Shown here one piece after another: positions 1 to 4,600 of a DNA stretch of 64,000 nt; the first letter of the stretch is position 1, and each line of letters opens with the position of its first letter. Location: the IMG/VR virus record IMGVR_UViG_2857429247_000001, positions 32,001 through 96,000 of that record; one strand, written 5' to 3'. The position numbers and the translations under genes were made by a program. Origin of the DNA: a virus (taxonomy: Duplodnaviria; Caudoviricetes). Below the pieces are notes generated by a model. That model was not told the DNA's origin. It did no database searches and saw only the letters and a list, made by a program, of their open reading frames with translations.

Positions 1-243
1 GAGGCCGCCGCCCTCGGCTGGACGACGCTGGCACTGTTCGGCGTGCACCGGACCGCGGGCGCAATGCGCGTGGACGCAACGGGGGCGCTGATCACGCTCT
101 ATCCGCGCAAGGTGATTGCGATCTCGGCGACCGAGATCAAGCTGAGCCGTCGCGGCGTGGTGCAGACCTATCGCGGGCTGGTGAACCCGGCGGCGAGCGT
201 TCCGGTGTGGGACTTCCGCTATCCGGAGAAGGCCAAGCCATGA
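1..243 (+). CDS. hypothetical protein, 5'-truncated by window edge
   Basis: Open frame from base 1 (EAAALGWTTLALFGVHR...) to TGA at 241-243; ATGA overlap with the next gene. Confidence 0.6.
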   Translation, partial: EAAALGWTTLALFGVHRTAGAMRVDATGALITLYPRKVIAISATEIKLSRRGVVQTYRGLVNPAASVPVWDFRYPEKAKP

Positions 244-584
244 CGCCCGCGGAGGTAATCGCCGCCCTCTCGGGCAAGCGCATGCGCTGCTCGACCGAGC
301 GCGCGTTGCAGGACGATATCGAATCGGTCCTGCGCGCCGCCGGGCGCCCGTTCGAGCGCGAGCGCTGGCTCGGCGCCGAGACGGGGCGCATCGACTTCCT
401 CGCCGGCCGCACGGGCGTCGAGGTGAAGGTGAAGGGCGGCGCCCGGGAGATCCACCGGCAGGTGCTGCGCTACTGCGGGCATCCGGCGATTGACGCCGTG
501 GTGCTCGCCACGACCAAGGCGGTGAGCCTGCCGCCCATGCCCAAACCCGTCCACATCCTCGACCTGTCGCGAGCCTGGCTTTAA
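240..584 (+). CDS. PD-(D/E)XK nuclease-like protein
   Basis: E...RIDF...VEVK motif; ATG at 240; its stop codon is supplied by the IS right end. Confidence 0.6.
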   Translation: MTPAEVIAALSGKRMRCSTERALQDDIESVLRAAGRPFERERWLGAETGRIDFLAGRTGVEVKVKGGAREIHRQVLRYCGHPAIDAVVLATTKAVSLPPMPKPVHILDLSRAWL

Positions 585-1813
585 CATCTTCCCCGCCCTG
601 AAGGACGGGGATTTTCGGAGATCGTGAGATCTCGTCCAGTTGACGCTTCACAGGGCCGCTTATGCAAACCCTCCACGTCCAGCAACGCGCTGTTCGCACG
701 CCGTCTAATATTAATCGCCGCGTTGATGTCGGCGTGGCCGGCGTGGCCGCAACTGATGCATCGGAAGACCGCTTGGCTCTCGCGGCTCCTCGCATCGACC
801 ACACCACACGCCGCGCAGGTCTGCGACGTGAACTGCGCGGGAACGGTGACAACCTGACCGCCGCGCGCCTCCATCTTGTACGTCAGGATCGTCGCGAACT
901 GGTGCCAGCCCGCGTTGAGGATCACCCGGTTCAGACCGGCCTTCTGGCGGACGTTGCGGCCGGGCTCTGCGAGGGTGCCTTTCGCGCTCGCGGTCATCGC
1001 GCGTGTGTTCAAGCCCTCCAACACCGCCGTCCCGAACCGGCGGCTGATGTCGAGGGCGGCGCGGTGGTGGAAGTCGCGCCGGATGCGGGCCTGCCGGGCC
1101 TGGAGGCGGGCGACGCGGGCCAGCGCGCGGCGCCTCCGGTTCGACCCGCGCTTGCGCCGAGAGGCAACCCTCTGCGCCTTGCGCTTCCTCGCCTCGATCC
1201 GTTCCAGGCTCTCGGGCAGGCGCATGGTCTCGCCCGTGGACAGGGCGAGCGTGGTCGTCACACCGCGGTCTATCCCGACCACCTCGGCGCTCGGGGCGGG
1301 CGCCGCGTGCTCGACTTCGCAGGTGAAGGCGACGTGCCAGCCGATCGGATCGAGGGAGACGGTGGCGTTCTTGACCGTGCCCTGGATCGGCCGCGTGTCG
1401 CGGAACCGAACCCAGCCGATCTTGGGCAGGCGCACGGCCGACCACTTCGCGCTGAGCCGCCGCACCGCGACCTCTCGCCCGGGAAAGCGGAAGCTGTCGT
1501 CCTCACCACGCCGACGCTGGCGCGGGAACGCGGCGCGACCCGTGAAGAAGTTCTGGAACGCCCGGTCGAGGTCCCGCAGGGCCTGCTGCTGACACGAGAC
1601 GTAGACGGCCCGCACCCAATCGAACTCGGCACGCAATCGGGTGAGGTCGGCGGCTTGGCCGACGTACCCGAGGCGGTGCTTGCGACCCCAGATCGCTCTC
1701 TGTTCGAGGGCGAGGTTGTAGGTCAATCGGCACACGCCCGCGAACTGCCGGAACAGGTCTTCCTGCTCGGGCAACGGATCCAGTTTGAACCTGTATCCAC
1801 GTGCGATGATCAC
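581..1813 (-). CDS. tnpB: RNA-guided endonuclease TnpB
   Basis: N-terminal HTH (GYRFKLDP), RuvC D (GIDRG), E (VLEGL) and D (ADINAA), Zn ribbon CAAC...CISC. Confidence 0.95.
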   Translation of the reverse strand: MIIARGYRFKLDPLPEQEDLFRQFAGVCRLTYNLALEQRAIWGRKHRLGYVGQAADLTRLRAEFDWVRAVYVSCQQQALRDLDRAFQNFFTGRAAFPRQRRRGEDDSFRFPGREVAVRRLSAKWSAVRLPKIGWVRFRDTRPIQGTVKNATVSLDPIGWHVAFTCEVEHAAPAPSAEVVGIDRGVTTTLALSTGETMRLPESLERIEARKRKAQRVASRRKRGSNRRRRALARVARLQARQARIRRDFHHRAALDISRRFGTAVLEGLNTRAMTASAKGTLAEPGRNVRQKAGLNRVILNAGWHQFATILTYKMEARGGQVVTVPAQFTSQTCAACGVVDARSRESQAVFRCISCGHAGHADINAAINIRRRANSALLDVEGLHKRPCEASTGRDLTISENPRPSGRGRC

Positions 1814-1911
1814 GGTCTGTTCCTATCACGGGGCGGGCATCTCACCAACCATTCATGCCGCGCAGACGTGCGGCCTCCTCGGCCTGAAGGCCGAGGTTTC
1901 AGGAGTTGCCG
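581..1911 (-). mobile_element. IS200/IS605-family tnpB-only (IS1341-like) element
   Basis: RE hairpin CCCCGTCC-TTCA-GGGCGGGG ending in TTAA at 581; LE hairpin CCTCGGCC-TTCA-GGCCGAGG near 1877-1896; target TCAT at 1912-1915; no tnpA. Confidence 0.9.
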
Positions 1912-3678
1912 ATGAGCGCTGCCCTATCCCTGTCCCTGCCCGTGCCGGCCCCGGCGCGCACCTACGGCACCCTGACGCTCGACCGTGACCGGAGCGAGTG
2001 GATCCTCGACGGGATGGACCCGCACGTCGCGATCCGGTTGAAGAACGCCTTCCCCCGGGTGTCGAAGACCGGCACCCAGCCGTTCCAGTTCCGCGACACG
2101 CCGGAGGGCTGCGCCGATCTCGACTGGTTCCTCTCCCGCTATCCGATGCGCATGCTCGACGGCGACGCCTCGGCGCTCCAGGCCGGCCGCAGGCGGTTCG
2201 AGGCGGACATCGCCGAGGCGGAGCGCCTGCTCCTGCCGGACTACACGCCGCCGCCCTTCGCCGGCTTCCGAGAGGGACTCGCGCCCTATCCGATGCAGAC
2301 GGTGGCGATCGAACTGGCGCGGATGCGCGGGCGCCTGCTCCTCGGCGACGACCTGGGCCTCGGCAAGACCACGGTGGCGCTGGGCGCGATCCTGGAGCCG
2401 CGCTTGCTGCCCGCCGCCGTGGTGGTGCAGTCGCACCTCGGGCCGCAATGGGAGAAGCGGGCGCAGGTCTTCACGAACCTACGGGTGCACCGGATCAAGG
2501 GGACCAAGCCCTACGACCTGCCGGAGGCCGACCTCTACATCTTCACCTACTCCCAGCTCGCCGGCTGGGTGAGCGTGTTCGAGGTCGTGCGCTGGCCGAC
2601 GGTGATCTATGACGAGATCCAGGAACTGCGCACGGGCGGGAAGGCCGCGAAGTACCGGGGCGCGGAGGTGCTGAGCCGGCACGCCGGCGCGCTGCGCCTC
2701 GGGCTCTCGGCCTCGCCGGTCTACAACTACGGCGACGAGATCTTCCCGATCCTGGAGCTGCTCGAGAAGGGCGCGCTCGGCTCCTACGACGAGTTCACGC
2801 GTGAATGGTGCAGCTACAACGGGCGGCGCTACATCGTTGACGATCCGGACGCGCTCGGGACCTACCTGCGCGAGCAGCACCTGATGCTTCGGCGCCTGCG
2901 CGGCGGCCGGCCGGTGAACACGATCGTTCGTCACGTCCCCTACGACGAGGAAATCGCGGCCGAGAGCGAGGACCTCGCCCGGGCGCTGGCGATCAAGGTG
3001 CTGAGCGGTTCGTTCGTCCAGCGGGGCCAGGCGGCGCGCGAGCTCGACATGCTGGCCCGGCAGGTGACCGGCGTGGCCAAGGCGCGGCACGTCGCGGCGG
3101 TGGTGCGGATCCTGCTCGAGAGCGGCACGCCGGTGGTGCTCGCGGGCTGGCACCGCGAGGTCTACGAGATCTGGTGCGAGGCGCTGAAGGATTTCGGGCC
3201 GGAGCTCTACACCGGCACGGAGTCGGCCTCGCGCAAGGAGAAGAGCAAGGATCGGTTCGTCTCCGGCGAGACCGATCTCCTGATCATGTCGCTGCGCTCC
3301 GGCGCCGGCCTCGACGGGCTGCAGGCGCGGTGCTGCACGGTGGTGTTCGGAGAACTGGACTGGTCGCCGAAGGTCCACGAGCAGCTCATCGGCCGCGTCG
3401 ACCGGCCGGGCCAGTCGGCCGAGGAGGTGACGGCGATCTACCTCGTCACCGACCAGGGCTCCGACCCGGTGGTGACCGGGGTGCTGGGCCTGAAGGGCGC
3501 CCAGGCGCGCGGGATCACCGACCCGCTGGCGGGTGTCGAGCACGTCTATTCCGACGAGAGCCGCGTCCGCCTGCTGGCTGAGCGCTACCTCGCCGCCCAG
3601 GGGCAGACGACGCCGCAGGCCGTGCCGAGCGCGACACCGCAGACCGTGACGCTGATGGAGGTTGGTGATGGACGATGA
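1912..3678 (+). CDS. SNF2-family (SF2) helicase
   Basis: GDDLGLGKT, DEIQE, LSASP, SLRSGAGLDGLQ, QLIGRVDRPGQ. Confidence 0.9.
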   Translation: MSAALSLSLPVPAPARTYGTLTLDRDRSEWILDGMDPHVAIRLKNAFPRVSKTGTQPFQFRDTPEGCADLDWFLSRYPMRMLDGDASALQAGRRRFEADIAEAERLLLPDYTPPPFAGFREGLAPYPMQTVAIELARMRGRLLLGDDLGLGKTTVALGAILEPRLLPAAVVVQSHLGPQWEKRAQVFTNLRVHRIKGTKPYDLPEADLYIFTYSQLAGWVSVFEVVRWPTVIYDEIQELRTGGKAAKYRGAEVLSRHAGALRLGLSASPVYNYGDEIFPILELLEKGALGSYDEFTREWCSYNGRRYIVDDPDALGTYLREQHLMLRRLRGGRPVNTIVRHVPYDEEIAAESEDLARALAIKVLSGSFVQRGQAARELDMLARQVTGVAKARHVAAVVRILLESGTPVVLAGWHREVYEIWCEALKDFGPELYTGTESASRKEKSKDRFVSGETDLLIMSLRSGAGLDGLQARCCTVVFGELDWSPKVHEQLIGRVDRPGQSAEEVTAIYLVTDQGSDPVVTGVLGLKGAQARGITDPLAGVEHVYSDESRVRLLAERYLAAQGQTTPQAVPSATPQTVTLMEVGDGR

Positions 3679-4078
3679 CCTGTTCGCAGGGCTGCCGCGG
3701 CTCGAGATGGCGCCGTCGGCAGACGGGATGATGGTTGGCGCGATGGGTGGCGGCGCCGCCTGTGGGCTGGAGATCGCGCCCGATCAGGCGCTGGCCGCCG
3801 GGATCTGGCTCCTCGACGCCGGCCTCGGCCGATCGCGGGACCCGCTCGAGGTCGGGGAGATCGTCGGCCCGAGCGCGCTGCGCCTCGCTCCGTTCGCCGG
3901 AGGCGACGTGGGCGCGTCCGTGGTCACCCTCGACGTGGGCGAGGAGCCGGCGCAGGTGGTGCTGAATCGCCTGCAGGCGATGCTGGCCGGCGAGCACCTG
4001 ATCGCCTGCGCGATCCGGGCGGGGGCGCGACCATCTGCGCAATCACCACTTGATCCCGAGGGGCTCATTCGGCTCTAG
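3668..4078 (+). CDS. hypothetical protein
   Basis: ORF overlaps helicase end; GGAGG upstream. Confidence 0.6.
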   Translation: MDDDLFAGLPRLEMAPSADGMMVGAMGGGAACGLEIAPDQALAAGIWLLDAGLGRSRDPLEVGEIVGPSALRLAPFAGGDVGASVVTLDVGEEPAQVVLNRLQAMLAGEHLIACAIRAGARPSAQSPLDPEGLIRL

Positions 4079-4186
4079 TATGTTCACGAGTTCACGCGTC
4101 GACGAATTCAGTCCGCGTGCCGTCCGCGGGGCGGAAACGGCCCCGGCCCGCGGTCTCCTTCAGGCGCCGAACCCGCGAGGTCCCGC

Positions 4187-4600
4187 ATGTCCGATCACAG
4201 CCCGTCCCTCACCCGCCTGACCGCCGATCTCGTATCGGCCTATGTGGCGCGCAACGCCGTACCGGCTTCGGACATGCCCGGCCTGATCCGGACGGTCCAC
4301 GCTGCGATCAGCGGGCTCGGGACGGCCGGTCCGGTGGCGCCGCAGGTGCGGACGCTCAGCCAGGCCGAGGTCAAGCGCTCGATCGCCGCCGACGGGCTGG
4401 TCAGCTTCATCGATGGGCGCACCTACCAGACGCTGCGACGCCATCTCACAGCCCACCGGATGACGCCGGACCAGTATCGCCGCGCGTACGGTCTTCCCGC
4501 GGATTATCCGCTCGTGGCACCGTCCTACTCGCAGAAGCGGTCCAAGATCGCCAAGGCGATCGGCCTGGGCGTGCCGAACGCTCTGGCGCAGGCGGCCTGA
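4187..4600 (+). CDS. mucR: MucR/Ros family transcriptional regulator (zinc-free variant)
   Basis: LTADLVSAYV.RN; SFIDGRTYQTLRRHL; YGLPADYPLVAPSYS..RS.IAKAIGLG. Confidence 0.93.
   Translation: MSDHSPSLTRLTADLVSAYVARNAVPASDMPGLIRTVHAAISGLGTAGPVAPQVRTLSQAEVKRSIAADGLVSFIDGRTYQTLRRHLTAHRMTPDQYRRAYGLPADYPLVAPSYSQKRSKIAKAIGLGVPNALAQAA

What the first reader, a model, noticed from the sequence alone, without database searches (positions are those of the whole stretch)
575..1920. TnpB element sits in an ATGA stop/start overlap and supplies both a stop codon and an RBS
Seen: deleting 581-1911 gives GCC TGG CTA TGA, so the nuclease gene ends WL* overlapping the helicase ATG. With the IS present, the right end reads CTT TAA (still WL*) and the left end places AGGAG 6 nt before the helicase ATG. 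Known rule (IS608): guide bases 1, 2 and 4 in front of each end hairpin pair with cleavage-site bases 2, 1 and 4. Here GAAA predicts TCnT (observed TCAT) and AAAT predicts TTnA (observed TTAA). Inference: a TCAT TAM is the reverse complement of ATGA, so this element would preferentially hit coupled gene junctions and leave both proteins intact. The predicted omegaRNA guide is the minus-strand flank starting at 580 (AGCCAGGCTCGCGACAGG...).
Basis: partly seen in the sequence, partly recalled or inferred. Interest (0 to 1): 0.7.

Follow-up and report, generated by a model that had tools for sequence, protein, structure and literature searches.

The report
TnpB transposon in a phage gene junction
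A 1.3-kb transposase-less jumping element that encodes the RNA-guided nuclease TnpB sits exactly in the four-base ATGA stop/start overlap between two phage genes and leaves both genes intact. The element is a known kind with a published target site, and its relatives sit next to gene start codons more often than chance predicts.

Summary
Window 581-1911 (minus strand) is a 1331-bp tnpA-less IS200/IS605-family element with an intact TnpB and a guide-RNA scaffold supported by covariation.

- **Empty sites.** A related phage (L004), and a roughly 98%-identical contig in a public run that joins 580 directly to 1912, both read ...GGCT|ATGA.
- **Neighbouring genes.** The right end's TTAA rebuilds the upstream gene's stop (CTA TGA becomes CTT TAA). 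The left end places AGGAG 6 nt before the helicase ATG.
- **Target.** All 19 independent copies with a recognisable left end have TCAT at that end; 2 further decayed copies lack it.
- **IS608 guide/cleavage pairing rule.** It holds here. It also covaries in a sister subfamily: CAAT with TGAA, CAAC with TGAG, GAAT with TCAA.
- **Start codons.** Excluding the window, 7 of 18 copies lie flush on start-like ATGs, against 5% of background ATGA sites. Only one other copy lies on an ATGA overlap.
- **Outward Shine-Dalgarno (SD)-like motif.** 14 of 19 left ends carry one, against 0 of 9 in the sister subfamily.

The N|ATGA target of IS605 elements was published in 2016, and RNA-guided homing by TnpB is established. 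This scan has already noted the same habit on other DNA. Whether the ends are adapted to gene junctions or only survive there is open. The finding is correct and neat, but it is a new member of a known kind.

The parts
581..1911 (-). Whole insertion sequence: 1331 bp, tnpA-less IS200/IS605-family (IS605-type) element.
   Evidence: Empty sites in L004 and in a run X17 contig that skips exactly 581-1911. Right ends of relatives stop at 581. Left ends start after TCAT.
1912..1915 (-). Target/TAM TCAT on the element's strand. On the + strand it is ATGA: the helicase start codon overlapping the ancestral stop of the upstream gene.
   Evidence: TCAT lies 11-14 nt 5' of the left-end guide in all 19 independent copies with a recognisable left end; 2 further decayed copies lack it.
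1901..1911 (-). Left-end linker of 11 nt. On the + strand it reads AGGAGTTGCCG, which puts an SD-like AGGAG (1901-1905) 6 nt before the helicase ATG.
   Evidence: 14 of 19 copies have an SD-like motif 4-10 nt before the flanking ATG, against 0 of 9 in the sister subfamily and 8% at random ATGA sites.
1877..1900 (-). Left-end guide tetranucleotide GAAA (1900..1897) and hairpin CCTCGGCC-TTCA-GGCCGAGG (1896..1877).
   Evidence: Guide/target covariation in the sister subfamily.
581..1813 (-). tnpB: 410 codons, GTG start, and a TAA stop formed by the last three bases of the element.
   Evidence: Pfam HTH_OrfB_IS605, OrfB_IS605 and Cas12f1-like_TNB. Aligns over residues 6-393 with ISDra2 TnpB (8bf8, 8exa, 8h1j) at E = 2.5e-34. 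The printed alignment, to the closely related top hit 9yyg, shows the GIDRG, LEGLN and HADINAAINI motifs.
581..710 (-). Structured core of the guide-RNA (omegaRNA) scaffold. It overlaps the tnpB 3' end, and its 5' limit is approximate.
   Evidence: RNAalifold on 22 copies: 43 pairs, 17 of them with compensatory changes (alignment A1). No Rfam family matches.
581..614 (-). Right end: guide AAAT (614..611), hairpin CCCCGTCC-TTCA-GGGCGGGG (610..591), spacer AAGATG, and terminal TTAA (584..581). On the + strand, T581 completes codon CTT and 582-584 is the TAA stop of the upstream gene.
   Evidence: The hairpin has a G-T wobble on the minus strand and a C-A mismatch on the plus strand, so the minus strand is the structured one.
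561..580 (-). Flank that the read-through guide RNA would carry as its guide (AGCCAGGCTCGCGACAGGTC).
   Evidence: Position by analogy with ISDra2 and Geobacillus TnpB elements. The empty allele in run X17 has TCAT directly followed by an identical 20-mer.
240..584 (+). Upstream 114-aa gene, PD-(D/E)xK nuclease-like. Its last sense codon and its stop are now supplied by the element's right end.
   Evidence: PHROG 5928. Invariant E41, D52, E61, K63 and Q74. Fold matches to restriction-type nucleases are weak.
1912..3678 (+). SNF2-family helicase, 588 aa, intact.
   Evidence: Pfam SNF2-rel_dom and Helicase_C. PHROG 62 DNA helicase. Homologues start at the same codon.

Best explanation
Window 581-1911 is a non-autonomous, TnpB-only derivative of an IS605-type element whose full-length relatives live in Methylobacterium.

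- Insertion (boundaries shown, mechanism inferred). A Y1 transposase supplied in trans by a host copy pasted the single-stranded element immediately 3' of TCAT. The site was selected by base pairing with the left-end guide GAAA. In this phage the TCAT is the complement of the ATGA stop/start overlap between a small PD-(D/E)xK-like gene and an SNF2 helicase gene.
- Effect on the neighbours (shown from sequence). The element ends in the palindrome TTAA. At any ATGA overlap this rewrites NNA TGA as NNT TAA, here CTA TGA to CTT TAA, which is still Leu-stop. The left-end linker reads outward as AGGAG-N6-ATG. Both coding sequences are therefore unchanged.
- Helicase translation (inferred). The helicase is probably translated from the transposon-borne SD on read-through transcripts.
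- Persistence (inferred by homology). TnpB with its 3' guide RNA is expected to cut element-free alleles (TCAT plus AGCCAGGCTCGCGACAGGTC) in sister chromosomes or co-infecting phages, so that repair copies the element back in. This is the established TnpB homing mechanism.
- Cause of the start-codon enrichment (open). Relatives are enriched next to start codons. This could reflect survival of harmless insertions or an adapted left end.
For: - Exact insertion: empty sites in L004 and in a run X17 contig that skips 581-1911.
- One copy in the virus record and no Y1 transposase gene there.
- Full-length relatives carry a divergent Y1_Tnp gene (E = 4e-34).
- TnpB domains and catalytic motifs are intact.
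- The guide-RNA scaffold shows 17 covarying pairs.
- TCAT is present in all 19 copies with a recognisable left end.
- Guide/target covariation in the sister subfamily.
- A second ATGA-overlap insertion, L117, shows the same synonymous rebuild: ACA TGA becomes ACT TAA.
- Start-codon enrichment: 7 of 18 against 22 of 418, p = 5e-5; against non-disruptive sites only, p = 0.004.
- One flank gene is a resolvase whose Pfam match starts at residue 2.
- Outward SD-like motif in 14 of 19 copies, against 0 of 9 and an 8% baseline.
Against: - No expression data: helicase transcription across 1.3 kb of antisense tnpB is assumed. No sigma-70-like promoter or terminator was found in 1-2400.
- TnpB and TnpA activity and the TAM are inferred from sequence only.
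- The nearest sampled copies are only about 82% identical, so the donor is unknown.
- The SD-like motif is equally common in copies that are not at start codons. It is therefore a lineage trait, and it could serve left-end structure rather than translation.
- The start-site classifier is a home-made codon-usage score trained on about 250 kb.
Confidence: 0.85

Rival explanations
1. Adapted junction-dweller. The TCAT-targeting lineage has evolved its two ends as portable translation signals: an outward SD in the left-end linker and TTAA at the right end. Insertions on start codons and ATGA overlaps are then nearly harmless, which is why copies accumulate there and can colonise dense phage operons.
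For: - SD-like motif in 14 of 19 copies across at least 7 different linker sequences. It is absent from all 9 copies of the sister subfamily, whose target (TGAA or TGAG) contains no start codon. The baseline is 8% (Fisher p = 7e-4).
- Start-site enrichment persists against a background of non-disruptive sites only (p = 0.004).
Against: - Copies are related by descent, so the counts are not independent. On distinct linker variants the result is 7 of 12 against 0 of 5, p = 0.04.
- In some variants the CCT next to the guide can pair with the AGG that follows the left-end hairpin, which is a possible structural reason for the motif.
- TTAA is dictated by the right-end guide AAAT and also serves as tnpB's own stop codon.
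- There is no functional test.
Confidence: 0.35
2. Pure survivorship. The element inserts at any TCAT. Copies inside genes are lost, and the SD-like motif and the rebuilt stop are by-products of end structure and of the palindromic TTAA.
For: - No extended motif is visible around TCAT by eye in the flanks printed.
- Some copies lie inside genes (L114, L120) or in non-coding DNA.
- In the phage window only 6 of 279 ATGA sites are overlaps, and most other sites lie in coding sequence, so viability alone would filter strongly.
Against: - The share at start sites (39-42%) exceeds the share expected among non-disruptive sites (11%).
- An insertion between a native SD and its ATG should normally silence the gene unless something replaces the SD. 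Native SDs were displaced in L003, L113 and L118.
Confidence: 0.45
3. The TnpB is kept by the phage as a weapon against competing element-free phages, or as a regulator, rather than as a merely selfish passenger.
For: - The nuclease motifs are intact.
- A near-identical empty allele with a perfect TAM and target exists in nature.
- Homing between co-infecting phages is discussed as a category in PMC13565253.
Against: - The ends, guides and hairpins are all intact, as in mobile copies.
- The closest homologue, L004, has 2 mismatches in the 20-nt target, one of them at position 6 (read by eye from the junction printed).
- Nothing distinguishes this reading from ordinary homing.
Confidence: 0.1
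4. The 1.3-kb segment is ancestral to this phage lineage and was deleted in relatives, rather than inserted here.
For: None beyond formal possibility.
Against: - The same element with the same ends occurs at about 19 unrelated sites in Methylobacterium genomes and in metagenomes.
- All 19 helicase homologues in other phages lack it.
- The empty site is a clean ATGA overlap.
Confidence: 0.01

Closest known systems
IS605B-1_MA, IS605B-1_HM and the ISC elements of Microcystis, Halomonas and Marinobacter (Kapitonov, Makarova and Koonin 2016, PMC4810608)
   Same: TnpB-only (IS605B) elements of the IS200/IS605 superfamily, inserted precisely at N|ATGA. This is the same target written on the opposite strand. 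They were established by filled/empty locus pairs, as here.
   Different: They come from different hosts, and I did not compare their TnpB sequences with this one. The paper does not mention start codons, stop/start overlaps or SD donation: 'start codon' occurs 0 times in its text.
IS608 (Helicobacter pylori), the structural model for target choice in the family
   Same: Subterminal hairpins. A 4-nt guide lies 5' of each hairpin and pairs with cleavage-site bases in the order 2, 1, 4. The rule is recalled from Barabas et al. 2008, was not re-read here, and fits three guide/target pairs. The right-end cleavage site lies 10 nt 3' of the hairpin.
   Different: IS608 has target TTAC and right end TCAA. 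Its tnpA and tnpB are co-oriented, whereas in full-length relatives of this element tnpA is divergent. The linker from left-end cleavage site to hairpin is 15 nt here; 19 nt in IS608 is from memory.
ISDra2 TnpB with its omegaRNA (PDB 8bf8, 8exa, 8h1j) and Geobacillus IS605 TnpB homing (Karvelis 2021, PMC8612924; Meers 2023, bioRxiv 10.1101/2023.03.14.532601)
   Same: A 410-aa TnpB that aligns end to end with ISDra2 TnpB at E = 2.5e-34. The guide RNA overlaps the tnpB 3' end and would read into the flank. The TAM is the transposon's own target.
   Different: About 30% identity or less. The TAM is TCAT rather than TTGAT. The tnpB reading frame runs to the very last base of the element. Activity is untested.
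Free-standing homing endonuclease genes between conserved phage genes (T4 Seg and Mob; reviewed in PMC13565253)
   Same: A nuclease gene wedged between two conserved phage genes. Filled and empty alleles exist in related phages, and spread would be by cleavage of the empty allele.
   Different: Target recognition is by RNA guide plus TAM. The element also has transposon ends and can move by TnpA.

Membership tests
IS200/IS605 family (IS605-type; TnpB-only derivative) | Insertion 3' of a fixed tetra- or pentanucleotide, with no inverted terminal repeats and no target duplication. | tested here: met
   Filled and empty alleles differ by exactly 1331 bp with no duplicated bases. TCAT flanks the left end in all 19 copies with a recognisable left end; 2 further decayed copies lack it.
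IS200/IS605 family (IS605-type; TnpB-only derivative) | Subterminal hairpins at both ends, each preceded by a guide tetranucleotide complementary to its cleavage site (positions 1-2, 2-1, 4-4). | tested here: met
   GAAA with TCAT and AAAT with TTAA in the window. Covariation in the sister subfamily: CAAT with TGAA, CAAC with TGAG, GAAT with TCAA.
IS200/IS605 family (IS605-type; TnpB-only derivative) | Y1 HUH transposase TnpA in autonomous members. | tested here: met
   Full-length relatives (about 1.7 kb) carry a divergent 151-aa Y1_Tnp gene (E = 4.3e-34). The window copy and the whole virus record have none, so this copy is non-autonomous.
TnpB RNA-guided nucleases (Cas12 ancestors) | HTH/WED-REC, RuvC with a D-E-D triad, and a zinc-ribbon TNB domain. 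| tested here: met
   Pfam PF12323, PF01385 and PF07282. Alignment to solved TnpB structures, with the GIDRG, LEGLN and HADINAAINI motifs and the CxxC...CxxC zinc ribbon present.
TnpB RNA-guided nucleases (Cas12 ancestors) | A structured guide-RNA scaffold at the 3' end of the element that reads into the flank. | tested here: met
   17 pairs with compensatory changes in 22 copies. The transcript itself was not observed.
TnpB RNA-guided nucleases (Cas12 ancestors) | TAM- and guide-dependent DNA cleavage. | not testable with these tools
   Needs a TAM-depletion or in vitro cleavage assay.
PD-(D/E)xK nucleases (upstream 114-aa gene) | Conserved D...(D/E)xK catalytic motif on an alpha-beta-beta-beta-alpha-beta core. 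| tested here: inconclusive
   D52, E61-x-K63, E41 and Q74 are invariant. The model has pLDDT 94. Foldseek hits are nearly all restriction-type nucleases, but the best E-value is only 0.013. No Pfam or PDB sequence hit.

The most novel reading that the evidence does not exclude
TCAT-targeting IS605 lineages are specialised junction transposons. Their left-end linker has evolved into an outward ribosome-binding site, and their TTAA right end into a universal stop-codon patch for ATGA overlaps. They can therefore sit flush on start codons without polar damage, which would explain their over-representation there and their success in gene-dense phages.
Probability: 0.35. Interest if true: 0.55.

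Novelty: new member of a known kind. Interest (0 to 1): 0.35.

Why it matters
The locus is a clean natural example of how a selfish RNA-guided nuclease element can live inside a tightly packed phage operon without breaking it. Filled and empty alleles are both available in public data. That makes it a convenient system to test three things:
- whether the TAM is TCAT;
- whether homing occurs between phages;
- whether transposon ends can act as translation signals.

It may matter for annotation. The stop of one gene and the ribosome site of the next are transposon-derived here, and tnpB-antisense insertions flush on start codons should not be read as operon breaks. The general habit of sitting on start codons is not described in the papers I could search. 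It follows fairly directly from a published target site, and this scan has seen it several times on other DNA.

Tried and rejected
- **Rfam.** A scan of 1-3000 found no guide-RNA family, only a sub-threshold sot0042 match at 590-635.
- **Promoter and terminator scan of 1-2400.** It found nothing on either strand.
- **Phage collection.** No close DNA match.
- **Family-level genome search.** It sampled too broadly and added little.
- **Genus-level pattern search.** It gave only 20 right-end matches in 15 of 146 Methylobacterium genomes.
- **Antisense 'translation relay'.** The + strand frame 662-1915 ends on the TGA of the helicase ATGA. However, tnpB lacks TTA, CTA and TCA codons in nearly all copies compared. 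That includes tnpA-bearing copies whose frame does not link to the flank. Element lengths fall in all three phases. The open frame is therefore explained by high-GC codon usage, not by selection.
- **Generic hairpin scan for left ends of 40-58%-identical relatives.** Too noisy to use.
- **Right-end relics ending in TTGA or TTAG.** They sit at orthologous sites in 4-5 Methylobacterium genomes. They are decayed fragments, not domesticated genes.
- **Literature.** A search for TnpB, TAM and TCAT returned nothing relevant. PMC7002104 was irrelevant.
- **No binding prediction was run.**
Full report
**What is in the sequence.** On the + strand a 114-codon gene ends GCC TGG CTT TAA (stop at 582-584). 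A 588-codon SNF2 helicase gene starts at ATG 1912 and is preceded by AGGAG (1901-1905) plus six bases. Between them, on the minus strand, lies a 410-codon frame (1813..581, GTG start) with the three Pfam domains of TnpB. It aligns end to end with ISDra2 TnpB structures at E = 2.5e-34. The RuvC motifs GIDRG, LEGLN and HADINAAINI and the zinc ribbon are intact. The window comes from a 113-kb high-GC virus record that holds this element once and has no Y1 transposase gene.

**Boundaries and empty sites.**
- Nineteen phage contigs encode a related helicase, and none carries the element. Most of them have the homologue of the small gene directly upstream.
- The closest, L004 (helicase 81% identical), reads ...gagcatggct|ATGAGCGC. 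This is exactly window 580 joined to 1912. Two others have a GTGA overlap at that place.
- In public run X17, a 639-nt contig about 98% identical to the flanks joins 580 directly to 1912. It skips 1331 bases with no ambiguity and has no differences in 492-580.
- All 14 related right ends compared, from Methylobacterium genomes, two of its plasmids, two unclassified proteobacterial MAGs and a Microvirga plasmid, end in ...GATGTTAA and then diverge.

The element is therefore 581-1911, inserted without target duplication into a CT|ATGA stop/start overlap.

**Family.**
- Full-length relatives (about 1.7 kb) carry a divergent 151-aa Y1_Tnp gene between the left-end hairpin and tnpB.
- The window copy and several others (1329-1403 bp) lack it. 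This copy is an IS605-type element reduced to tnpB, and it depends on a host TnpA.
- The last ~130 nt form a structure with 17 covarying pairs in 22 copies. This is the expected guide-RNA scaffold, and it overlaps the tnpB 3' end.
- The tnpB stop codon is the last three bases of the element.

**Target rule.**
- In the window, the left-end guide GAAA precedes hairpin 1896..1877 and the flank is TCAT. The right-end guide AAAT precedes hairpin 610..591 and the end is TTAA.
- This fits the IS608 pairing scheme (guide bases 1, 2, 4 with site bases 2, 1, 4). I recalled the scheme from the literature and did not re-read it.
- It is more than coincidence. All 19 independent copies with a recognisable left end have TCAT 11-14 nt 5' of GAAA; 2 further decayed copies lack it.
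- A sister subfamily (about 40% TnpB identity; Trinickia, Paraburkholderia) shows CAAT with TGAA in six copies, CAAC with TGAG in two, and right-end guide GAAT with TCAA.

**Consequences for the neighbours.**
- At any ATGA overlap the upstream frame reads NN|A TGA. After insertion it reads NN|T TAA, because the right end is the palindrome TTAA. The stop stays in place and the last codon changes only at its third base.
- Here CTA becomes CTT (Leu). At the only other ATGA-overlap insertion found (L117), ACA becomes ACT (Thr).
- The left-end linker read outward gives AGGAG-N6-ATG.
Their functional relevance is inferred.

**Are relatives placed non-randomly?**
- I trained a codon log-likelihood score on about 250 kb of Methylobacterium flanks. 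I used it to classify each reconstructed empty site and every other ATGA in about 99 kb of the same flanks.
- Start-like sites are 8 of 19 insertions, or 7 of 18 without the window, against 22 of 418 background sites (Fisher p = 5e-5). Against start-like plus non-coding sites only, p = 0.004.
- One flank gene is a resolvase whose Pfam match begins at residue 2. Another is a SOUL-domain protein.
- Three sites had a native SD that the element displaced (L003, L113, L118).
- Stop/start overlaps specifically are 1 of 18 against 3 of 418 (p = 0.16).
- Other copies lie inside genes or in unclear DNA. Example: L114 in a DxDGTLI motif typical of HAD hydrolases, read by eye with no family search run.
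- In the phage window, 6 of 279 ATGA sites are overlaps.

The supported statement is 'enriched at start codons'. 'Aimed at coupled junctions' is not established.

**The outward SD.**
- An AGGA, GGAG or GAGG motif lies 4-10 nt before the flanking ATG in 14 of 19 left ends, spread over at least seven different linker sequences.
- It is found in 0 of 9 sister-subfamily copies, whose target has no ATG. The baseline at random ATGA sites is 8%.
- It is equally frequent in copies away from start codons, so it is a lineage trait.
- This is suggestive of adaptation. However, the copies share ancestry, and in some variants the CCT next to the guide can pair with the AGG after the hairpin.

**An idea tested and dropped.** The + strand frame 662-1915 runs antisense through the element and stops on the TGA of the helicase ATGA. 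Here the open frame follows from tnpB lacking TTA, CTA and TCA codons in almost all copies. That includes copies where the frame does not connect. Element lengths occur in all three phases.

**Comparison with what is known.**
- Kapitonov, Makarova and Koonin (2016, PMC4810608) showed by filled/empty pairs that TnpB-only IS605B elements and ISC elements of Microcystis, Halomonas and Marinobacter insert at N|ATGA. That is the same target on the other strand. They do not discuss start codons.
- TnpB homing is established (PMC8612924; bioRxiv 10.1101/2023.03.14.532601).
- Homing between co-infecting phages is listed as a category in a 2026 review (PMC13565253).
- Earlier notes of this scan report the same habit on other DNA: TCAT-targeting TnpB elements flush on start codons or ATGA overlaps, sometimes replacing the ribosome site. 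I treated these as leads only.

**Verdict.** The element is a new member of a known kind. The open question is whether the ends are adapted translation signals or whether harmless insertions simply survive. Unselected transposition profiles and reporter fusions would settle it.

Noticed in passing
window 662-1915 (+): A 417-codon open frame antisense to tnpB ends exactly on the TGA of the helicase ATGA. It is explained by the absence of TTA, CTA and TCA codons in this high-GC tnpB, and the link to the flank is not conserved across copies.
   Followed up: yes
window 240-243: A second ATGA stop/start overlap, between the frame ending at 243 and the 114-aa gene, lies 340 bp upstream. It is an unoccupied potential TCAT target. 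Six such overlaps are present among 279 ATGA sites in the window.
   Followed up: partly
L035, L037, L039, L040, L054, L102, L171, L175 (Trinickia, Paraburkholderia and relatives): A sister IS605 subfamily at about 40% TnpB identity has target TGAA with guide CAAT, target TGAG with guide CAAC, and right end TCAA with guide GAAT. This is natural covariation that supports the guide/cleavage-site pairing rule.
   Followed up: yes
L104-L106, L109, L110 and L107, L108, L111, L112 (Methylobacterium genomes): Two old relics of the element have right ends mutated to TTGA or TTAG. Each sits at one orthologous site in 4-5 species and retains only tnpB fragments.
   Followed up: partly
L123 about 2107-4230 (IMGVR_UViG_2918999278_000001): Another viral contig carries a 2123-bp variant of the same element (TnpB 82% identical). 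It lies flush on the start codon of a 66-aa ORF with a signal-peptide-like N terminus. The extra ~800 bp between the left end and tnpB was not analysed.
   Followed up: no
window 591-610: The right-end hairpin has a G-T wobble when read on the minus strand and a C-A mismatch on the plus strand. This marks the minus strand, or its RNA, as the folded one.
   Followed up: yes
window 240-584 (+) and homologues in L004-L018: The small gene that almost always precedes the SNF2 helicase in these phages has an invariant E-D-ExK-Q motif and a confident PD-(D/E)xK-like model, but no Pfam family. It is a conserved nuclease-helicase pair coupled by ATGA or GTGA overlaps.
   Followed up: partly
runs X13 and X16 on window 581-685: High-depth contigs (40-345x) carry only the right-end 36-105 nt of the element joined to other flanks. 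Further copies or relics of the family are therefore abundant in those samples.
   Followed up: no
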